From the NCBI RefSeq assembly GCF_056746865.1, contig NZ_CM163382.1: a DNA stretch of 64,000 bases, one strand, 5' to 3'. The position numbers were made by a program. How positions within the stretch are numbered: position 1 is the first letter of the stretch; each line of letters opens with the position of its first letter. Positions 9,001 through 15,000 of the stretch are shown here, piece after piece.

Positions 9001-12000
9001 CCCGCTAGAAATTGATTTCGATAAAGAGTACACCGAGTACAACTTAAACCCAGACACGCACGGGGCTGACCTGCGCCATGAGTTTGAGAAAACCGAATAT
9101 CGCGTCATGTTAGTCGCCAACAAGTTCCAAACGGGCTTTAATCAACCAAAACTGGTTGCCATGTATTTGGATAAGAAAATATCCGATGTAGAAGCGGTGC
9201 AAACGCTGTCTCGCCTAAACCGCACCTATCCAGGCAAAGACACAACCTTCGTGATTGATTTTGTTAACGATCCACAAACCATTCTCAATGCGTTCAAAAA
9301 GTACGACAAAGGCGCGCAGCTTAATGAAGTGCAAGATGTGAACGTCATCTATGACATCAAAGATATTTTGGATGAACAGAACATATACAACCATCAAGAT
9401 TTAGAGTTGTTTAAGCAAGCGCGTGGTAAATCGATTCTCGGCCAATCACCTGACAAAAAGTCACACGCGCACAAGAAACTGCTAGCTGCCACACAACGCC
9501 CTACCGATGTGTTCAACGTTAAGCTCAAAGAGCTGGTTGATGCTGCAAACCATTGGGATCAGCAATACAACAAAGCGCACCTTGCGGGTGATGAAAAAGC
9601 GGCGAACTACGCAGAATCTCAGCGCAGTGATTTCACCAAGCAGCGCGAAGCACTAATGCGTTTTAAGTCAGATTTAGCTCGATTTGTGAAGCACTATAGC
9701 TATATGAACCGCCCCGGGTTTCCTGGAGAGTGTTTTATCTGTGAACTCAGGCTGCCAGATCATCGTTTCCGATGGAAGCATAATAAGCTTTTTCTGCTTC
9801 TGCCGGAGGAGTATGGCCCAGCCTTCCCAGCAATCGTCGATTGTTATACCAGTCCACCCACGTTAGTGTGGCCAGTTCCACTTCTGCACGGTTTTTCCAG
9901 CTCTTACGGTGTATTACCTCCGCTTTGTAAAGACCATTGATGCTCTCAGCCATCGCGTTGTCATACGAGTCGCCTGTACTCCCTGTTGATGCCAGTAATC
10001 CGGCTTCTTTTAGTCGCTCCGTATAGGCCAGTGACACATACTGAGAGCCTTTATCGCTGTGATGGATGGTGCCAGACGGACGACGGGCCCACAACGCCTG
10101 CTCCAGCGCATCCAGCACGAATGTCGTTTCCATAGACGATGAGACCCGCCACCCCACGATGTATCCGGCAAACACATCAATGATAAACGCCACATAGACG
10201 AAGCCCTGCCATGTGCTGACGTAAGTAAAATCAGCCACCCACAGCTGGTCAGGTCGTTCTGCCACGAACTGACGGTTTACGCGGTCGCCTGCGGCAACGG
10301 CTTTCCGGCTGATGGTCGTACGGACCTTTTTACCCCGGAGAACACCGGCAAGTCCCATAACCGCCATGAGACGTGCCACTGTACATCTGGCCACCCTGAT
10401 TCCTTCCCGTAACAACTGACGCCAGACTTTACGCACACCGTACACCTGATGATTTTCATCGTATACGCGCTGTATCTCTCTCTTCAGCCAGTCGTCGTGC
10501 TGCGCACGGGCACTGCGTTTATCCGGATGATGTCGCTGTTGCTGACAATGGTAATACGTTGACGGGGCAATATGCAGTTCGCTGCATACCGGTCCGACCC
10601 CGTACTGCTCACGCAGCTTATCCAGCAGTGGCATCATTTTTTCCAGAGGCGGTCGAACTCCGCCTTCGCAAAATAAGCGGAAGCCTGGCGAAGGATATCG
10701 TTACTGCGGCGCAGTTCACGATTTTCACGTTCCAGCTCTTTCAGACGCTGACGTTCAGCGCTGGTGAGCCCACCATCACCGCCCCCGGTATCCCGCTCAT
10801 GCTGGCGAACCCAGACACGCAGAGTCTCCGGCGTACAGCCAATCTTTGGGGCAATGGAACAAATTGCCGCCCACTGTGAGTCATATTCATCCTGACTTTC
10901 CAGAACCATACGAATCGCCCGCTGACGGACTTCGGGGGAAAAACGAGTATTTTTAGTCATCCTGTTTACCTCTTTCTCAGGGAGTTTAGTCTCCAGGATT
11001 TCCGGGGCGGTTCAATATGGCGCAATTGATTGAGTTTGGTGATCCTGAACTGGAAAACTTTGCCGCGTTTGCTCATTTGCTATCACGTCGATTGAAAGGG
11101 GTAACACCAGAAAACATCGATCTCAGTGCACTGGTACTAGAAAAATTCAAAATCAAATACGACAAAGAGCCGCTTCCAGAAGCGTTTAATCAGGTACTTG
11201 AACCTATCCGCCCCAACTATAACGACCCTGCGGATCGTGAACAGGCATTTCTTGCCGATATCATTCGCCGCCTAAACGAACTGTTTGGCGATGTCGGCGA
11301 CGAACCCGGTCGCCGAAACTTTGCCAACGGTACTATTACGCGTGTCACCCAAAATCCAATTGTGGTTGAGCAGATAGAAAAGCACGACAAGTCGATTGCC
11401 CTCAAAGGCGACTTGCCGCAAGCGGTGAAGCAAGCCGTTGTGCAGGCTCTGCTGAAAGAAGGTGATATAGCCCGAACGCTACTCAAAGACCCACAAGTTA
11501 TGGCAAGTTATGTTGAGTTGATTTTTGACATGATGAAGCAAGGTGCAGAACAGGCGGCGGTGAAATAATGAATACTGCGTTTCGGGTTTTACTTACGTTC
11601 AATGCAACATCACTACTAGTGATTATCTTTGCGGTACAAAAAGGGTACTCACTCGGATATTTCTTTGGTGGTTTCGCTTGCTTCGATTGGATAGCAGCAC
11701 TTCCGAACGCAGTATCATATTTACTCTATTTTCTTATCCCTGTTTTATCGACTGGATTGAGTATTTGGCTGAGTAAGTATTTGGGTAAAGACGATTTTAA
11801 GGCGGGTGAAGTAGCGAGTATTGAGCATGCCAATAACAGCTTCCTACCAAGTTATTTGGGTTACTTTTTCGTGGCGTTGAGCATTGGTAACTGGGAGACA
11901 TTGTGGTTTGTTTATGGCGTTTTGTTTGTTTTTACTCTCTTATCGCAAGCACTCTACTTTAACCCATTGTTTTTACTGTTTGGTTATGAGTTTTATAACA

Positions 12001-15000
12001 TTACAACCAAAAACGGAACGGCCATTTTCCTTATTAGCCGAGAGCGCTACAAGAAGCCAGATGACATCGAAATATCATTGGCTTATCGAATCAATAATTA
12101 CACATTTATCGAGCGAGGATAATGATGGACCATGTACTGGCACATATAAAAACTAGAGCAAAAAAACGCATTTTCAAATTGGTTTCTGATCAATCTCTTT
12201 TTGATACCGTCACAATCGACTTAAATGCCTGTATTCCATACAATCCAGACCATAACCTTGACGAAGACTCATGGTTTAAAATTGAAGACTTTAGTCAAAA
12301 AGAGTTTTGTATTGAACTGCTAAAAAAAGACTATGATTCAAAAGACTACGATGACTTAACCAAAGATAACTTCGCCAAGATCGCCTACTTATTTGCAATT
12401 CAAGGTAATGATTTTTACTTTCAAAAAATCACTCCAAGCCTATTCGTAAAACGCAAAACGCTTGTTTTTGGTGAAGCCGCAGAAATTGAGAAGAGCCAAA
12501 CACGTTTAGTAATAAACGCCTTACCTGATGCAGTGTACTTCAAAGTGGCCGATACCTTGATATTCAAAAATCTGGCAACGATCTCGAGCATTTTTAAAGG
12601 TATCGATGAGTTGTACAAGGAAGCAACAAAAGAAGAAGTTGAGCAGTTTTTAGATGCACAGTTTATAGAGTTGGGTAATGACTACAACGTAGATAGCGTC
12701 TCAAAACCTAATAGAAAACGTATTGGCCTTGCTATGGCAACACTTGATGCGATGTCTGCTGACGATAAAGCTAACATGCTTGATTATATCGACGGTTACT
12801 GCGGTGAACAGAAGCTGAAATTCGATAAAGAAAATCAGAAGTTTGAAATATCTAATGACGATGAGTTGAAGTTACTGCTTTATGGCATTGAACAACGCTT
12901 CTATACGACCCCGTTTGGCAAAGAAAAAAGGCTCGCTAACTCTGTAACCGCTATGGATAAATAATAGCCCATTATCAGTAACATATGAAGGTTGATTCAA
13001 TGGCCGATAACATCCCACAAGCTCCTCAAGGTGAGTTTGTTCTTTTCACCAGTGCTGATGGTCAAACCCGCGTTGAGTGTCGTTTTGAGTCTGACACCTT
13101 GTGGCTTTCTCAGGCTGCAATGGCAGAGCTTTATCAAGTTAGCTCTCAAGCAATCACCCAACACGTAAAAGCTGTCTATTCTGAAGAAGAGCTTGAGCAA
13201 ATTTCAACTTGTAAGGATTACTTACAAGTTCAACTGGAAGGTGGCAGAGAAGTAAAGCGAAGCATTCGTCACTACAGTCTTCCGGTTATTCTTGCAGTAG
13301 GATACCGAGTTCGCTCAACACGTGGCACCCAGTTCCGCCAATGGGCAACCAGAATGTTGCAAGTGAACCGCCCCGGGTTTCCTGGAGAGTGTTTTATCTG
13401 TGAACTCAGGCTGCCAGATCATCGTTTCCGATGGAAGCATAATAAGCTTTTTCTGCTTCTGCCGGAGGAGTATGGCCCAGCCTTCCCAGCAATCGTCGAT
13501 TGTTATACCAGTCCACCCACGTTAGTGTGGCCAGTTCCACTTCTGCACGGTTTTTCCAGCTCTTACGGTGTATTACCTCCGCTTTGTAAAGACCATTGAT
13601 GCTCTCAGCCATCGCGTTGTCATACGAGTCGCCTGTACTCCCTGTTGATGCCAGTAATCCGGCTTCTTTTAGTCGCTCCGTATAGGCCAGTGACACATAC
13701 TGAGAGCCTTTATCGCTGTGATGGATGGTGCCAGACGGACGACGGGCCCACAACGCCTGCTCCAGCGCATCCAGCACGAATGTCGTTTCCATAGACGATG
13801 AGACCCGCCACCCCACGATGTATCCGGCAAACACATCAATGATAAACGCCACATAGACGAAGCCCTGCCATGTGCTGACGTAAGTAAAATCAGCCACCCA
13901 CAGCTGGTCAGGTCGTTCTGCCACGAACTGACGGTTTACGCGGTCGCCTGCGGCAACGGCTTTCCGGCTGATGGTCGTACGGACCTTTTTACCCCGGAGA
14001 ACACCGGCAAGTCCCATAACCGCCATGAGACGTGCCACTGTACATCTGGCCACCCTGATTCCTTCCCGTAACAACTGACGCCAGACTTTACGCACACCGT
14101 ACACCTGATGATTTTCATCGTATACGCGCTGTATCTCTCTCTTCAGCCAGTCGTCGTGCTGCGCACGGGCACTGCGTTTATCCGGATGATGTCGCTGTTG
14201 CTGACAATGGTAATACGTTGACGGGGCAATATGCAGTTCGCTGCATACCGGTCCGACCCCGTACTGCTCACGCAGCTTATCCAGCAGTGGCATCATTTTT
14301 TCCAGAGGCGGTCGAACTCCGCCTTCGCAAAATAAGCGGAAGCCTGGCGAAGGATATCGTTACTGCGGCGCAGTTCACGATTTTCACGTTCCAGCTCTTT
14401 CAGACGCTGACGTTCAGCGCTGGTGAGCCCACCATCACCGCCCCCGGTATCCCGCTCATGCTGGCGAACCCAGACACGCAGAGTCTCCGGCGTACAGCCA
14501 ATCTTTGGGGCAATGGAACAAATTGCCGCCCACTGTGAGTCATATTCATCCTGACTTTCCAGAACCATACGAATCGCCCGCTGACGGACTTCGGGGGAAA
14601 AACGAGTATTTTTAGTCATCCTGTTTACCTCTTTCTCAGGGAGTTTAGTCTCCAGGATTTCCGGGGCGGTTCAAAGAATACCTAATCAAAGGATTCGTCA
14701 TGGATGACGAGCGCCTGAAAAATCCGCCCATTGGCCATTCTGCTGTGCCAGATTACTTTGATGAAATGCTGGAACGCATTCGTGATATCCGAGCTAGTGA
14801 GCGTCGCGTTTATCTGCGAGTCAAAGAAATCTTTACCATGGCTGCTGATTACGAGCCATCTAACCAAGAGACCAACCGCTTCTTCCAAACCATTCAGAAT
14901 AAGCTGCATTATGCTTGTACGCATATGACGGCTGCTGAGCTTATCGCCAGCCGTGTGGATGCCAGTAAGCCGGATATGGGCTTAACCAGCTATAAAGGCG

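What the first reader, a model, noticed from the sequence alone, without database searches (positions are those of the whole stretch)
11568..12964. Two-gene module (four-helix membrane protein plus 280-aa soluble protein) translationally coupled to the end of hsdR: candidate novel or Kiwa-like defence system
Both genes overlap their upstream neighbour's stop codon (TAATG at 11566-11570, ATGA at 12120-12123), so they are the fourth and fifth cistrons of the Type I R-M operon. They are more AT-rich than hsdM and hsdR, which suggests they were acquired as a separate cassette. The first protein has four predicted transmembrane helices and a charged cytoplasmic tail. The second has no recognisable catalytic motif. 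A small tetraspanning membrane sensor followed by a soluble effector of about 300 aa is the Kiwa (KwaA/KwaB, DUF4868) architecture, and the location inside an R-M/RhuM defence island supports an anti-phage role. I cannot confirm sequence homology to Kiwa; the pair could equally be an undescribed system.
Basis: partly seen in the sequence, partly recalled or inferred. Interest (0 to 1): 0.85.

Follow-up and report, generated by a model that had tools for sequence, protein, structure and literature searches.

The report
Kiwa defence pair inside restriction operon
The two genes are a divergent copy of the known Kiwa anti-phage system (membrane sensor KwaA plus DNA-binding KwaB), attached to the end of a Type I restriction-modification operon that an insertion sequence has broken in this genome; this is a known kind of system, not a new one.

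Summary
ORFs at 11568-12122 (184 aa) and 12122-12964 (280 aa) each overlap the upstream stop codon (TAATG) and are AT-rich. The "Kiwa-like" reading is right and the "undescribed system" alternative is not.

- Both proteins hit PADLOC KwaA/KwaB models over nearly their full length (9e-16, 7e-14).
- Close homologues of protein 1 carry Pfam PF28043 (KwaA).
- High-confidence AlphaFold models (pLDDT 92-93) match only the solved KwaA and KwaB chains in the PDB.

The clade is very divergent. It shares 10-12% identity with solved KwaB, the query has no Pfam KwaB hit, and the NCBIfam KwaA score is below cutoff. The pair is conserved: kwaA lies directly upstream of kwaB in 79 of 80 species, and dN/dS is about 0.06.

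An hsd gene sits immediately upstream on the same strand in 44 of 80 loci, in several gene orders. None of 7 canonical Kiwa loci show this. The accessible literature does not mention it.

In this window IS629-like insertions split hsdR and rhuM, so kwaAB has probably lost its promoter. Verdict: a new member of a known kind, of moderate-to-low interest. The Type I R-M linkage is the part worth following.

The parts
3754..5733 (+). hsdM, Type I R-M methylase subunit; first cistron of the operon
   Evidence: ORF. The identical E. coli locus is annotated 'type I restriction-modification system subunit M'.
5733..7019 (+). hsdS, specificity subunit
   Evidence: GC content is 40.2%.
7019..9704 (+). 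hsdR, 5' portion, interrupted by an IS
   Evidence: Joined to 11018-11568 it gives a 1,078-aa HsdR identical to WP_000718842.1.
9705..11014 (-). IS629-like (IS3-family) insertion sequence, copy 1. Target duplication ATA at 9702-9704 and 11015-11017. The transposase ORFs read away from kwaA.
   Evidence: Identical 1,310-bp repeat and its flanks. The IS family name is from my own recall of the OrfA sequence.
11018..11568 (+). hsdR 3' remnant, whose stop codon overlaps the kwaA start (TAATG at 11566-11570)
11568..12122 (+). kwaA-like gene: 184 aa, four TM helices plus a cytoplasmic six-strand beta domain
   Evidence: - PADLOC KwaA PDLC00216, 9.3e-16, profile positions 3-170 of 173.
- Homologues carry Pfam PF28043 (KwaA).
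- AF2 model pLDDT 91.9.
- Foldseek finds only KwaA chains 9mrx_A, 9mrr and 9mrg as significant.
- A family profile finds KwaA as the top PDB hit, E = 0.048.
12122..12964 (+). kwaB-like gene: 280 aa, soluble; start overlaps the kwaA stop (TAATG at 12120-12124); GAGGA Shine-Dalgarno sequence upstream
   Evidence: - PADLOC KwaB PDLC00222, 7.1e-14, profile positions 42-289 of 292.
- AF2 model pLDDT 93.1.
- Foldseek finds only KwaB chains 9mrx_D, 9mtn and 9nyu as significant, TM 0.61-0.64.
- Pfam KwaB hits 3 of 69 family members.
13000..13363 (+). rhuM 5' portion, the gene downstream of kwaB, interrupted by an IS
   Evidence: Excising the IS restores a 345/345-identical RhuM.
13364..14673 (-). IS629-like insertion sequence, copy 2. 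Target duplication AAG.
14677..15347 (+). rhuM 3' portion

Best explanation
The pair is a divergent member of the Kiwa anti-phage and anti-plasmid system.

What the two proteins are. Protein 1 is a KwaA: four transmembrane helices with a cytoplasmic beta domain built from the TM2-TM3 loop and the C-terminus. Protein 2 is a KwaB: an N-terminal alpha/beta domain plus a C-terminal DUF4868-type domain.

How characterised Kiwa works (PMC11785009). KwaA tetramers and KwaB dimers form a membrane-embedded supercomplex. The complex senses membrane disturbance at phage attachment or DNA-entry sites. KwaB then binds the incoming DNA without cutting it, which stalls phage replication and late transcription. 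The host cell is not killed.

How this pair is expressed. In the intact allele the two genes are the last translationally coupled cistrons of an hsdM-hsdS-hsdR operon, so they are made together with the restriction enzyme. In this window an IS629-like insertion 553 bp upstream of kwaA has cut them off from the operon promoter. The coding sequences are intact but probably poorly expressed or silent.

What is shown and what is inferred.
- Shown here: homology, fold, gene order, conservation, purifying selection and the IS disruption.
- Taken from the literature: the Kiwa mechanism.
- Inferred: that this divergent clade uses the same mechanism, that it is co-transcribed with hsd, and that it is silenced in this genome.
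For: Profile and family evidence
- PADLOC KwaA and KwaB profiles hit both proteins over nearly their full length. They also hit two distant pairs at 25-34% identity.
- Homologues 75-98% identical to protein 1 carry Pfam PF28043. The same accession is labelled KwaA on canonical, PDB-identical Kiwa loci.
- RefSeq names the identical protein 'KwaA family protein'.
- Pfam KwaB (PF16162) hits 3 of 69 members of the protein-2 family at E <= 0.001.

Structural evidence
- The protein-2 AF2 model (pLDDT 93.1) matches only KwaB chains in the PDB, at E 3e-6 to 3e-5 and TMq 0.61-0.64. The next hit is at E = 0.42.
- The protein-1 AF2 model (pLDDT 91.9) has 4 TM helices and 6 beta strands, as published for KwaA. 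It matches only KwaA chains, at E = 8e-5 and TMq 0.64. The next hit is at E = 1.4.
- A family profile of protein 1 finds KwaA as the only PDB family. The match is colinear and shares the motif NP...LFG[YF]x[FL]Y.

Conservation
- kwaA is directly upstream of kwaB in 79 of 80 species loci. The one exception lies at a contig end.
- The gap between the two genes is -26 to +6 nt in 74 of 75 loci.
- dN/dS is 0.05-0.07.
- Neighbouring genes in other genomes are R-M, BREX, Type III, PDC and CBASS-like defence genes.
Against: - There is no detectable pairwise similarity to the structurally solved KwaB (BLASTP E = 37; phmmer and hmmsearch against the PDB find no KwaB).
- Profile-profile comparison is only marginal (hhalign E = 0.045, probability 1.2%).
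- The query itself has no Pfam hit.
- The NCBIfam KwaA score is 25 bits against a cutoff of 100, and there is no NCBIfam KwaB hit.
- TM-scores of about 0.6 with rmsd of 5-7 A show similar topology but not close superposition.
- KwaB here is about 35-40 residues shorter than canonical KwaB (280 aa against 315-320 aa).
- The published KwaA-KwaB interface residues and most DNA-contact residues could not be mapped reliably.
- No member of this clade is known to me to have been tested against phage.
- In this window no promoter-like site lies between the IS and kwaA on the + strand.
Confidence: 0.85

Rival explanations
1. The pair has the Kiwa fold but functionally depends on the Type I R-M enzyme. 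Two versions are possible. It could guard or back up the enzyme, becoming active when phage anti-restriction proteins disable it, as PrrC does with EcoprrI. Or it could assist the enzyme by holding incoming DNA at the membrane, or by providing roadblocks that trigger HsdR cleavage. This overlaps with the best explanation rather than excluding it.
For: - An hsd gene lies immediately upstream on the same strand in 44 of 80 species loci, mostly with 4-nt or 1-nt overlaps. Five more loci have hsd genes within 6 kb.
- Several gene orders occur: R-M-S-kwaAB, M-S-R-kwaAB, M-S-kwaAB-R and R-S-kwaAB-M in Neisseria gonorrhoeae.
- These arrangements are interleaved on the KwaB tree.
- None of 7 canonical Kiwa loci show the linkage (Fisher p = 0.0055).
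Against: - 25 of 80 loci have no hsd gene within 6 kb, and there the pair follows other defence genes or stands alone. It is therefore not obligatorily tied to Type I R-M.
- Defence genes cluster for reasons of co-mobilisation and shared regulation without any physical coupling.
- The control set is small and taxonomically narrow.
- No interaction was tested.
Confidence: 0.25
2. The pair is an undescribed defence system that only resembles Kiwa in architecture (small membrane protein plus a soluble protein of about 280 aa).
For: Sequence similarity to characterised Kiwa proteins is below the Pfam and NCBIfam thresholds for the query, and pairwise similarity is absent.
Against: - PADLOC KwaA and KwaB models hit both proteins.
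- Pfam KwaA is found on close homologues.
- Both AF2 models match only KwaA or KwaB in the PDB over their full length.
- The same gene order and tight coupling are seen in canonical loci.
Confidence: 0.03
3. The pair has no defence role. It could be a transporter accessory protein, or a membrane protein with a partner that serves the mobile island.
For: None was found. The only points in its favour are that no catalytic motif is present and that databases carry the meaningless name 'ATP F0F1 synthase synthase'.
Against: - No transporter or housekeeping family hits were found.
- Neighbours across phyla are defence genes.
- The distribution is patchy and driven by horizontal transfer: 76 of 5,426 E. 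coli genomes, yet 82-96% identity in Vibrio, Shewanella and Aeromonas.
Confidence: 0.02

Closest known systems
Kiwa (KwaA/KwaB) of E. coli O55:H7 RM12579 and ECOR strains; PDB 9mrg, 9mrr, 9mrx, 9mtn, 9nyu; Zhang, Todeschini et al., PMC11785009
   Same: - Two-gene kwaA then kwaB operon, with the start of kwaB overlapping or abutting the stop of kwaA.
- KwaA has four TM helices plus a six-strand cytoplasmic beta domain.
- KwaB has the same overall two-domain fold.
- PADLOC and Pfam KwaA family membership.
- Location in defence islands or other mobile DNA.
   Different: - Only 10-12% (KwaB) and 16-20% (KwaA) identity in structural alignments.
- KwaB is about 35-40 residues shorter.
- The query escapes Pfam KwaB and the NCBIfam KwaA/KwaB thresholds.
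- The pair is appended to or embedded in Type I R-M operons in 55% of sampled species, whereas 7 of 7 canonical loci stand alone with a 90-560 bp upstream gap.
- This clade is untested experimentally, as far as I could find.
PrrC anticodon nuclease embedded in the EcoprrI Type I R-M operon (from my own knowledge of the literature)
   Same: A non-R-M defence gene sits inside or at the end of an hsd operon and is co-expressed with the restriction enzyme. This is a precedent for functional coupling between a Type I enzyme and an embedded second-line defence.
   Different: PrrC is a single soluble ATPase and tRNA nuclease that causes abortive infection. It has no homology to KwaA or KwaB. Its physical association with EcoprrI is demonstrated, whereas no interaction is shown here.
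RhuM-containing Type I R-M operons
   Same: rhuM follows kwaB in E. coli, in three marine gammaproteobacterial genomes (L005, L006, L008) and in Dysgonomonas. It is another accessory gene that commonly travels with hsd operons.
   Different: RhuM is unrelated in sequence, and its role in defence is not established. It is present in only 4 of 80 sampled loci.

Membership tests
Kiwa (KwaA/KwaB) | Two adjacent co-oriented genes, kwaA directly followed by kwaB | tested here: met
   - Window genes are at 11568-12122 and 12122-12964.
- The same order is seen in 79 of 80 related loci, with a gap of -26 to +6 nt in 74 of 75.
- The same layout is seen in canonical loci.
Kiwa (KwaA/KwaB) | KwaA is a small membrane protein with four TM helices; the intracellular loop and C-terminus form a six-strand beta-barrel (PMC11785009) | tested here: met
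   The AF2 model (pLDDT 91.9) has helices at 2-25, 47-71, 93-105 and 109-126, and six strands at 73-75, 82-87, 141-147, 152-157, 172-174 and 179-181. Foldseek hits only KwaA chains, with best E = 8e-5 and TMq 0.64. This is a prediction, not an experimental structure.
Kiwa (KwaA/KwaB) | KwaA sequence-family membership (PADLOC KwaA, Pfam PF28043, NCBIfam NF041622) | tested here: met
   - PADLOC PDLC00216, 9.3e-16, covering profile positions 3-170 of 173.
- PF28043 (KwaA) is precomputed on homologues 75-98% identical.
- RefSeq names the protein 'KwaA family protein'.
- The equivalog-level NCBIfam model NF041622 is NOT met (25.4 bits against a cutoff of 100). It is a family member, not an equivalog of the reference protein.
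Kiwa (KwaA/KwaB) | KwaB sequence-family membership (PADLOC KwaB; Pfam PF16162, formerly DUF4868) | tested here: inconclusive
   PADLOC PDLC00222 hits at 7.1e-14 over profile positions 42-289 of 292. Pfam PF16162 does not hit the query and hits only 3 of 69 family members at E <= 0.001. hhalign against canonical KwaB gives E = 0.045. BLASTP finds nothing.
Kiwa (KwaA/KwaB) | KwaB fold: N-terminal Rossmann-like alpha/beta domain plus C-terminal DUF4868 domain | tested here: met
   The AF2 model has pLDDT 93.1. The only significant PDB matches are KwaB chains 9mrx_D, 9mtn and 9nyu, over 318-327 aligned columns with TMq 0.61-0.64. The next hit is at E = 0.42.
Kiwa (KwaA/KwaB) | Conserved DNA-contact residues of KwaB (R142, R167, K187, R233, N134, D169) and KwaA-KwaB interface residues | tested here: inconclusive
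   In the low-confidence hhalign alignment, the nearly invariant R198 (NRKR motif) of this clade aligns with R233 of canonical KwaB. The other residues could not be mapped reliably.
Kiwa (KwaA/KwaB) | KwaA tetramer and KwaB dimer assemble into a supercomplex | not testable with these tools
   Only monomer prediction is available.
Kiwa (KwaA/KwaB) | Protects against phage and reduces conjugation; both genes are required | not testable with these tools
Type I R-M operon accessory or embedded defence module (PrrC-like arrangement) | Encoded within or at the end of an hsd operon, on the same strand, with a minimal intergenic gap | tested here: met
   The intact E. coli allele has hsdR and kwaA overlapping by 1 nt. 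44 of 80 loci have an hsd gene immediately upstream, and the commonest spacing is a 4-nt overlap. hsd identities were confirmed with NCBIfam.
Type I R-M operon accessory or embedded defence module (PrrC-like arrangement) | Physical or functional dependence on the R-M enzyme | not testable with these tools
   No test was possible. 25 of 80 loci lack hsd genes within 6 kb, which argues against strict dependence.

The most novel reading that the evidence does not exclude
This divergent Kiwa clade may have evolved as a partner of Type I restriction-modification enzymes. Under this reading it is co-transcribed and translationally coupled with them, has been re-attached to different hsd operons in at least four gene orders, and acts with them. 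It could capture DNA at the membrane and so increase restriction, for instance by providing roadblocks or stalled forks that trigger HsdR cleavage. Alternatively it could act as a backup when phage anti-restriction proteins disable the enzyme. That would make it a second PrrC-like example of a defence system wired into a Type I R-M operon.
Probability: 0.25. Interest if true: 0.65.

Novelty: new member of a known kind. Interest (0 to 1): 0.35.

Why it matters
For this window the result is mostly a correction. The 'candidate novel system' is Kiwa, a system whose structure and mechanism were published in 2025, and here it sits in an operon broken by an IS.

Three points have some wider value:
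- The KwaB partner of this clade is still annotated 'hypothetical protein' or the meaningless 'ATP F0F1 synthase synthase' in hundreds of genomes. It escapes Pfam and NCBIfam, so defence inventories built on those resources will under-count Kiwa.
- The clade is only 10-12% identical to the solved KwaB yet keeps the fold. This helps define which features of Kiwa are essential.
- Its repeated operonic fusion to Type I R-M systems suggests co-regulation or cooperation between a membrane-level sensor and a cytoplasmic restriction enzyme, and that idea can be tested directly.

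Tried and rejected
- Direct sequence searches of both proteins, and of the KwaB-family profile, against PDB sequences found no KwaB. The link emerged only through PADLOC profiles, a KwaA-family profile and fold comparison.
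- Pfam scans of the two query proteins gave only noise: WAC_Acf1_DNA_bd and p53-inducible11, at E > 0.03. I rejected these as chance hits.
- The first attempt to scan genomes with the 69-sequence alignment failed because it had no conserved stretch. I repeated it with a 12-sequence alignment.
- I looked for this pair in the supplementary tables of the Kiwa paper, but none are held. I therefore could not establish whether it belongs to one of that paper's three clusters, or whether ECOR8, ECOR12 or D9 Kiwa are of this clade.
- I recalled that the gonococcal NgoAV locus might be the published case of embedded unknown ORFs. The two papers I read describe NgoAV as hsdM-hsdS1-hsdS2-hsdR and mention no embedded genes. 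The gonococcal locus with kwaAB is therefore probably the other Type I system, and I left it unassigned.
- I considered that the two identical IS copies might form a composite transposon carrying kwaAB. I rejected this because each copy has its own 3-bp target duplication, and excising each one restores an intact gene.
- I looked for a promoter between the IS and kwaA and found none on the + strand.

Full report
**1. Observation.**
ORF listing and direct reading confirm two + strand ORFs, 11568-12122 (184 aa) and 12122-12964 (280 aa). The second junction is also TAATG (12120-12124), not 'ATGA at 12120-12123'. A GAGGA Shine-Dalgarno sequence precedes it.

GC content is 38.9% and 37.1% for the two genes. 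It is 47.6% for hsdM, 48.0% for hsdR, 40.2% for hsdS and 47.9% for the whole window.

The upstream ORF that kwaA overlaps is only the 3' remnant of hsdR. A 1,310-bp IS3-family element (IS629-like by my recall of its OrfA) lies at 9705-11014 with a 3-bp target duplication (ATA). An identical copy at 13364-14673 (duplication AAG) splits the downstream rhuM. Removing each IS plus one duplicated copy restores a 1,078-aa HsdR and a 345-aa RhuM. Both are identical to the proteins of intact E. coli loci.

The sequence-level observation is therefore confirmed. The operon is broken in this genome.

**2. The genes are real and conserved.**
- The 1,397-bp pair is at least 99.8% identical in 76 of 5,426 complete E. 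coli genomes. It is always chromosomal and always sits between hsdR and rhuM.
- In the intact locus the order is hsdM-hsdS-hsdR-kwaA-kwaB-rhuM. The junctions overlap by 1 nt, except for a short gap before rhuM.
- Homologues at 82-96% identity occur in Vibrio, Shewanella, Aeromonas, Plesiomonas, Alteromonas and Proteus.
- An all-against-all search finds 534 clusters at 50% identity.
- A scan of one genome per species finds relatives in 206 species. They span Proteobacteria, Bacteroidota, Firmicutes, Actinobacteria and others.
- In 79 of the 80 loci fetched, a kwaA-like gene lies immediately upstream on the same strand. The exception starts at a contig end.
- The distance from the kwaA stop to the kwaB start is -26 to +6 nt in 74 of 75 measurable pairs.
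- Against an 83-86% identical pair, dN/dS is 0.07 for kwaA and 0.05 for kwaB.

**3. Identity: Kiwa.**
*Profile evidence.*
- PADLOC-DB profiles named KwaA hit protein 1. The best is PDLC00216 at 9.3e-16, covering profile positions 3-170 of 173.
- Profiles named KwaB hit protein 2. The best is PDLC00222 at 7.1e-14, covering positions 42-289 of 292.
- The same profiles hit two distant pairs taken from metagenome and genome contigs.
- Close homologues of protein 1 carry the precomputed Pfam accession PF28043. That accession is labelled 'KwaA' on canonical loci, whose KwaB matches the PDB chain essentially perfectly (4.3e-198 over all 315 residues).
- RefSeq already calls the identical protein WP_001090220.1 'KwaA family protein' in newer annotations. 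WP_000968685.1, the KwaB-like protein, remains 'hypothetical protein' or 'ATP F0F1 synthase synthase'.

*Structural evidence.*
- Protein 2, modelled from a 69-sequence alignment, gave pLDDT 93.1. Its only significant PDB matches are KwaB chains (9mrx_D, 9mtn, 9nyu), at E 3e-6 to 3e-5, TMq 0.61-0.64 and 318-327 aligned columns. The next hit is at E = 0.42.
- Protein 1, modelled from 36 sequences, gave pLDDT 91.9. It shows four long helices and six beta strands contributed by the TM2-TM3 loop and the C-terminus. This is the published description of KwaA.
- Its only significant PDB matches are KwaA chains (9mrx_A, 9mrr, 9mrg), with best E = 8e-5 and TMq 0.64. The next hit is at E = 1.4.
- A sequence profile of the protein-1 family finds 'Kiwa protein KwaA' as the only PDB family. 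The match has E = 0.048, is colinear, and shares the motif NP...LFG[YF]x[FL]Y.

**4. How divergent it is.**
- The query proteins have no Pfam hit in the library available here.
- Pfam KwaB (PF16162) hits only 3 of 69 family members.
- NCBIfam KwaA scores 25 bits against a cutoff of 100, and there is no NCBIfam KwaB hit.
- BLASTP against the solved KwaB finds nothing. phmmer and hmmsearch against PDB sequences find no KwaB.
- hhalign against three canonical KwaB sequences gives E = 0.045 over 190 colinear columns. In that weak alignment the clade's nearly invariant R198 (NRKR motif) falls on R233, one of the DNA-contact residues mutated in the Kiwa study.
- KwaB here is 272-281 aa in most loci, against 315-320 aa in canonical loci.

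It is therefore a member of the Kiwa family by profile, fold and gene organisation. It is a deep branch, and no member of it is known to me to have been tested.

**5. Likely mechanism.**
The mechanism comes from the published work (PMC11785009).
- KwaA tetramers and KwaB dimers form a fence-like membrane supercomplex.
- The complex localises to phage attachment sites and responds to membrane disturbance. The same response applies to conjugation.
- KwaB binds ssDNA and dsDNA through the DUF4868 domain without cleaving it. This stalls replication forks and prevents late transcription.
- The cell survives. Lambda Gam inhibits KwaB.

I infer the same mechanism for this pair with confidence of about 0.85 for family and function. 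That this clade shares every step is inference.

In this window the IS transposase genes read away from kwaA. No + strand promoter-like site lies between the IS end and kwaA. I therefore infer that the pair is silent or weakly expressed here, although its coding sequence is intact.

**6. Linkage to Type I R-M.**
I clustered all flanking ORFs of the 80 loci. Three neighbour families were present in 47, 41 and 35 loci. NCBIfam identifies them as HsdS, HsdR and HsdM.

*Counts.*
- An hsd gene is the immediate upstream neighbour on the same strand in 44 of 80 loci (30 hsdS, 14 hsdR). The commonest spacing is a 4-nt overlap.
- Five further loci have hsd genes within 6 kb.
- Six loci have too little upstream sequence to judge, and 25 have none.

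*Gene orders.*
- hsdR-M-S-kwaAB: 19 loci.
- hsdM-S-R-kwaAB: 14 loci, including this window, two Vibrio genomes and Bacteroidota at about 45% identity.
- hsdM-S-kwaAB-hsdR: 5 loci.
- hsdR-S-kwaAB-hsdM in the Neisseria gonorrhoeae chromosome.

*Tree and control.* On a neighbour-joining KwaB tree these orders are interleaved. The window's M-S-R lineage nests inside an R-M-S group. The HsdM proteins of the other arrangements are only 21-31% identical to the window's HsdM. This implies repeated re-association rather than one inherited cassette.

Seven distinct canonical Kiwa contexts, all homologues of the PDB KwaA, stand alone with a 90-560 bp upstream gap and no hsd neighbour upstream. Fisher p = 0.0055.

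*Loci without hsd.* Here the pair follows other defence genes: a Type III restriction enzyme (start overlapping the upstream gene), BrxL, a Type IV-like enzyme, PDC-S06, PDC-M26 and a CBASS-like E1-E2 protein. On an Apilactobacillus plasmid it stands alone.

*Literature.* The Kiwa paper does not mention R-M linkage, and my literature searches found no report of it.

*Caveats.*
- The 80 loci are the best-scoring 80 of 206.
- Horizontal transfer of whole islands inflates the counts.
- The tree has no support values.
- The control set is small and consists only of Gammaproteobacteria.
- Adjacency does not show physical or functional coupling.

**7. Comparison and verdict.**
The closest known system is Kiwa itself. 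The pair has the same architecture, fold and family. It differs in extreme sequence divergence, a shorter KwaB and fusion to R-M operons.

The arrangement recalls PrrC within EcoprrI (my own knowledge), but there is no homology to PrrC and no evidence of dependence.

- Novelty: a new, uncharacterised and divergent member of a known kind.
- Interest: 0.35. It is ordinary as a defence-island component and is degraded in this genome, but it carries a testable lead on Kiwa/Type I R-M cooperation.
- For that lead I put the probability at about 0.25, with an interest of 0.65 if it proves true.

Noticed in passing
window 9705-11014 and 13364-14673: Two identical 1,310-bp IS629-like elements in the same orientation split hsdR and rhuM on either side of kwaAB. 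Each has its own 3-bp target duplication (ATA, AAG), and precise excision restores intact genes. They are therefore two independent recent insertions, not a composite transposon. None of the 76 complete E. coli genomes that carry the locus matches across the hsdR-IS junction: every match starts 15 bases in, at the IS end. This suggests an IS-expanded lineage such as Shigella.
   Followed up: yes
homologues of window 12122-12964: Dozens of RefSeq and UniRef entries for the KwaB-like protein carry the meaningless product name 'ATP F0F1 synthase synthase'. This is a propagated annotation error that hides a defence gene.
   Followed up: partly
L099:1880-9511 (Neisseria gonorrhoeae NZ_CP119142.1, a 2.17-Mb record filed as a plasmid): The gonococcal chromosome has hsdR, an hsdS-like gene, kwaA-like (186 aa), kwaB-like (279 aa, 42% identical) and hsdM, all on one strand. 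A Kiwa-like pair therefore sits inside a Type I R-M locus of a well-studied pathogen. The two gonococcal R-M papers I read do not mention it. I did not establish which named system it is (NgoAV or NgoAXVII).
   Followed up: partly
L009, L010, L024, L030, L038, L044, immediately downstream of kwaB (e.g. L038:6847-10068): In six hsdR-M-S-kwaAB loci a gene of about 1,070 aa follows kwaB on the same strand. It has weak reverse-transcriptase hits (retron St85 RT at 1e-8, Drt3a at 4e-6, both far below cutoff). It may be a defence-associated RT that travels with the cassette.
   Followed up: partly
L074:520-7856 (Dysgonomonas mossii): The order hsdS-(341 aa)-hsdR-kwaA-kwaB-rhuM is the same as in E. 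coli, although protein identities are only 38-47%. The hsdR-kwaAB-rhuM block is therefore conserved across phyla.
   Followed up: partly
window 15405-15791 (- strand) and 3181-3687 (+ strand): In the intact E. coli locus the gene next to rhuM is annotated 'conjugative transfer protein MobI(A/C)', and the gene upstream of hsdM is a RelB/DinJ antitoxin. An integrase fragment and IS1 lie further upstream. The island may be one of the genomic islands mobilised by IncC or SXT-type conjugative elements.
   Followed up: no
window 5733-7019: hsdS is also low in GC (40.2%), close to kwaA and kwaB.
   Followed up: no
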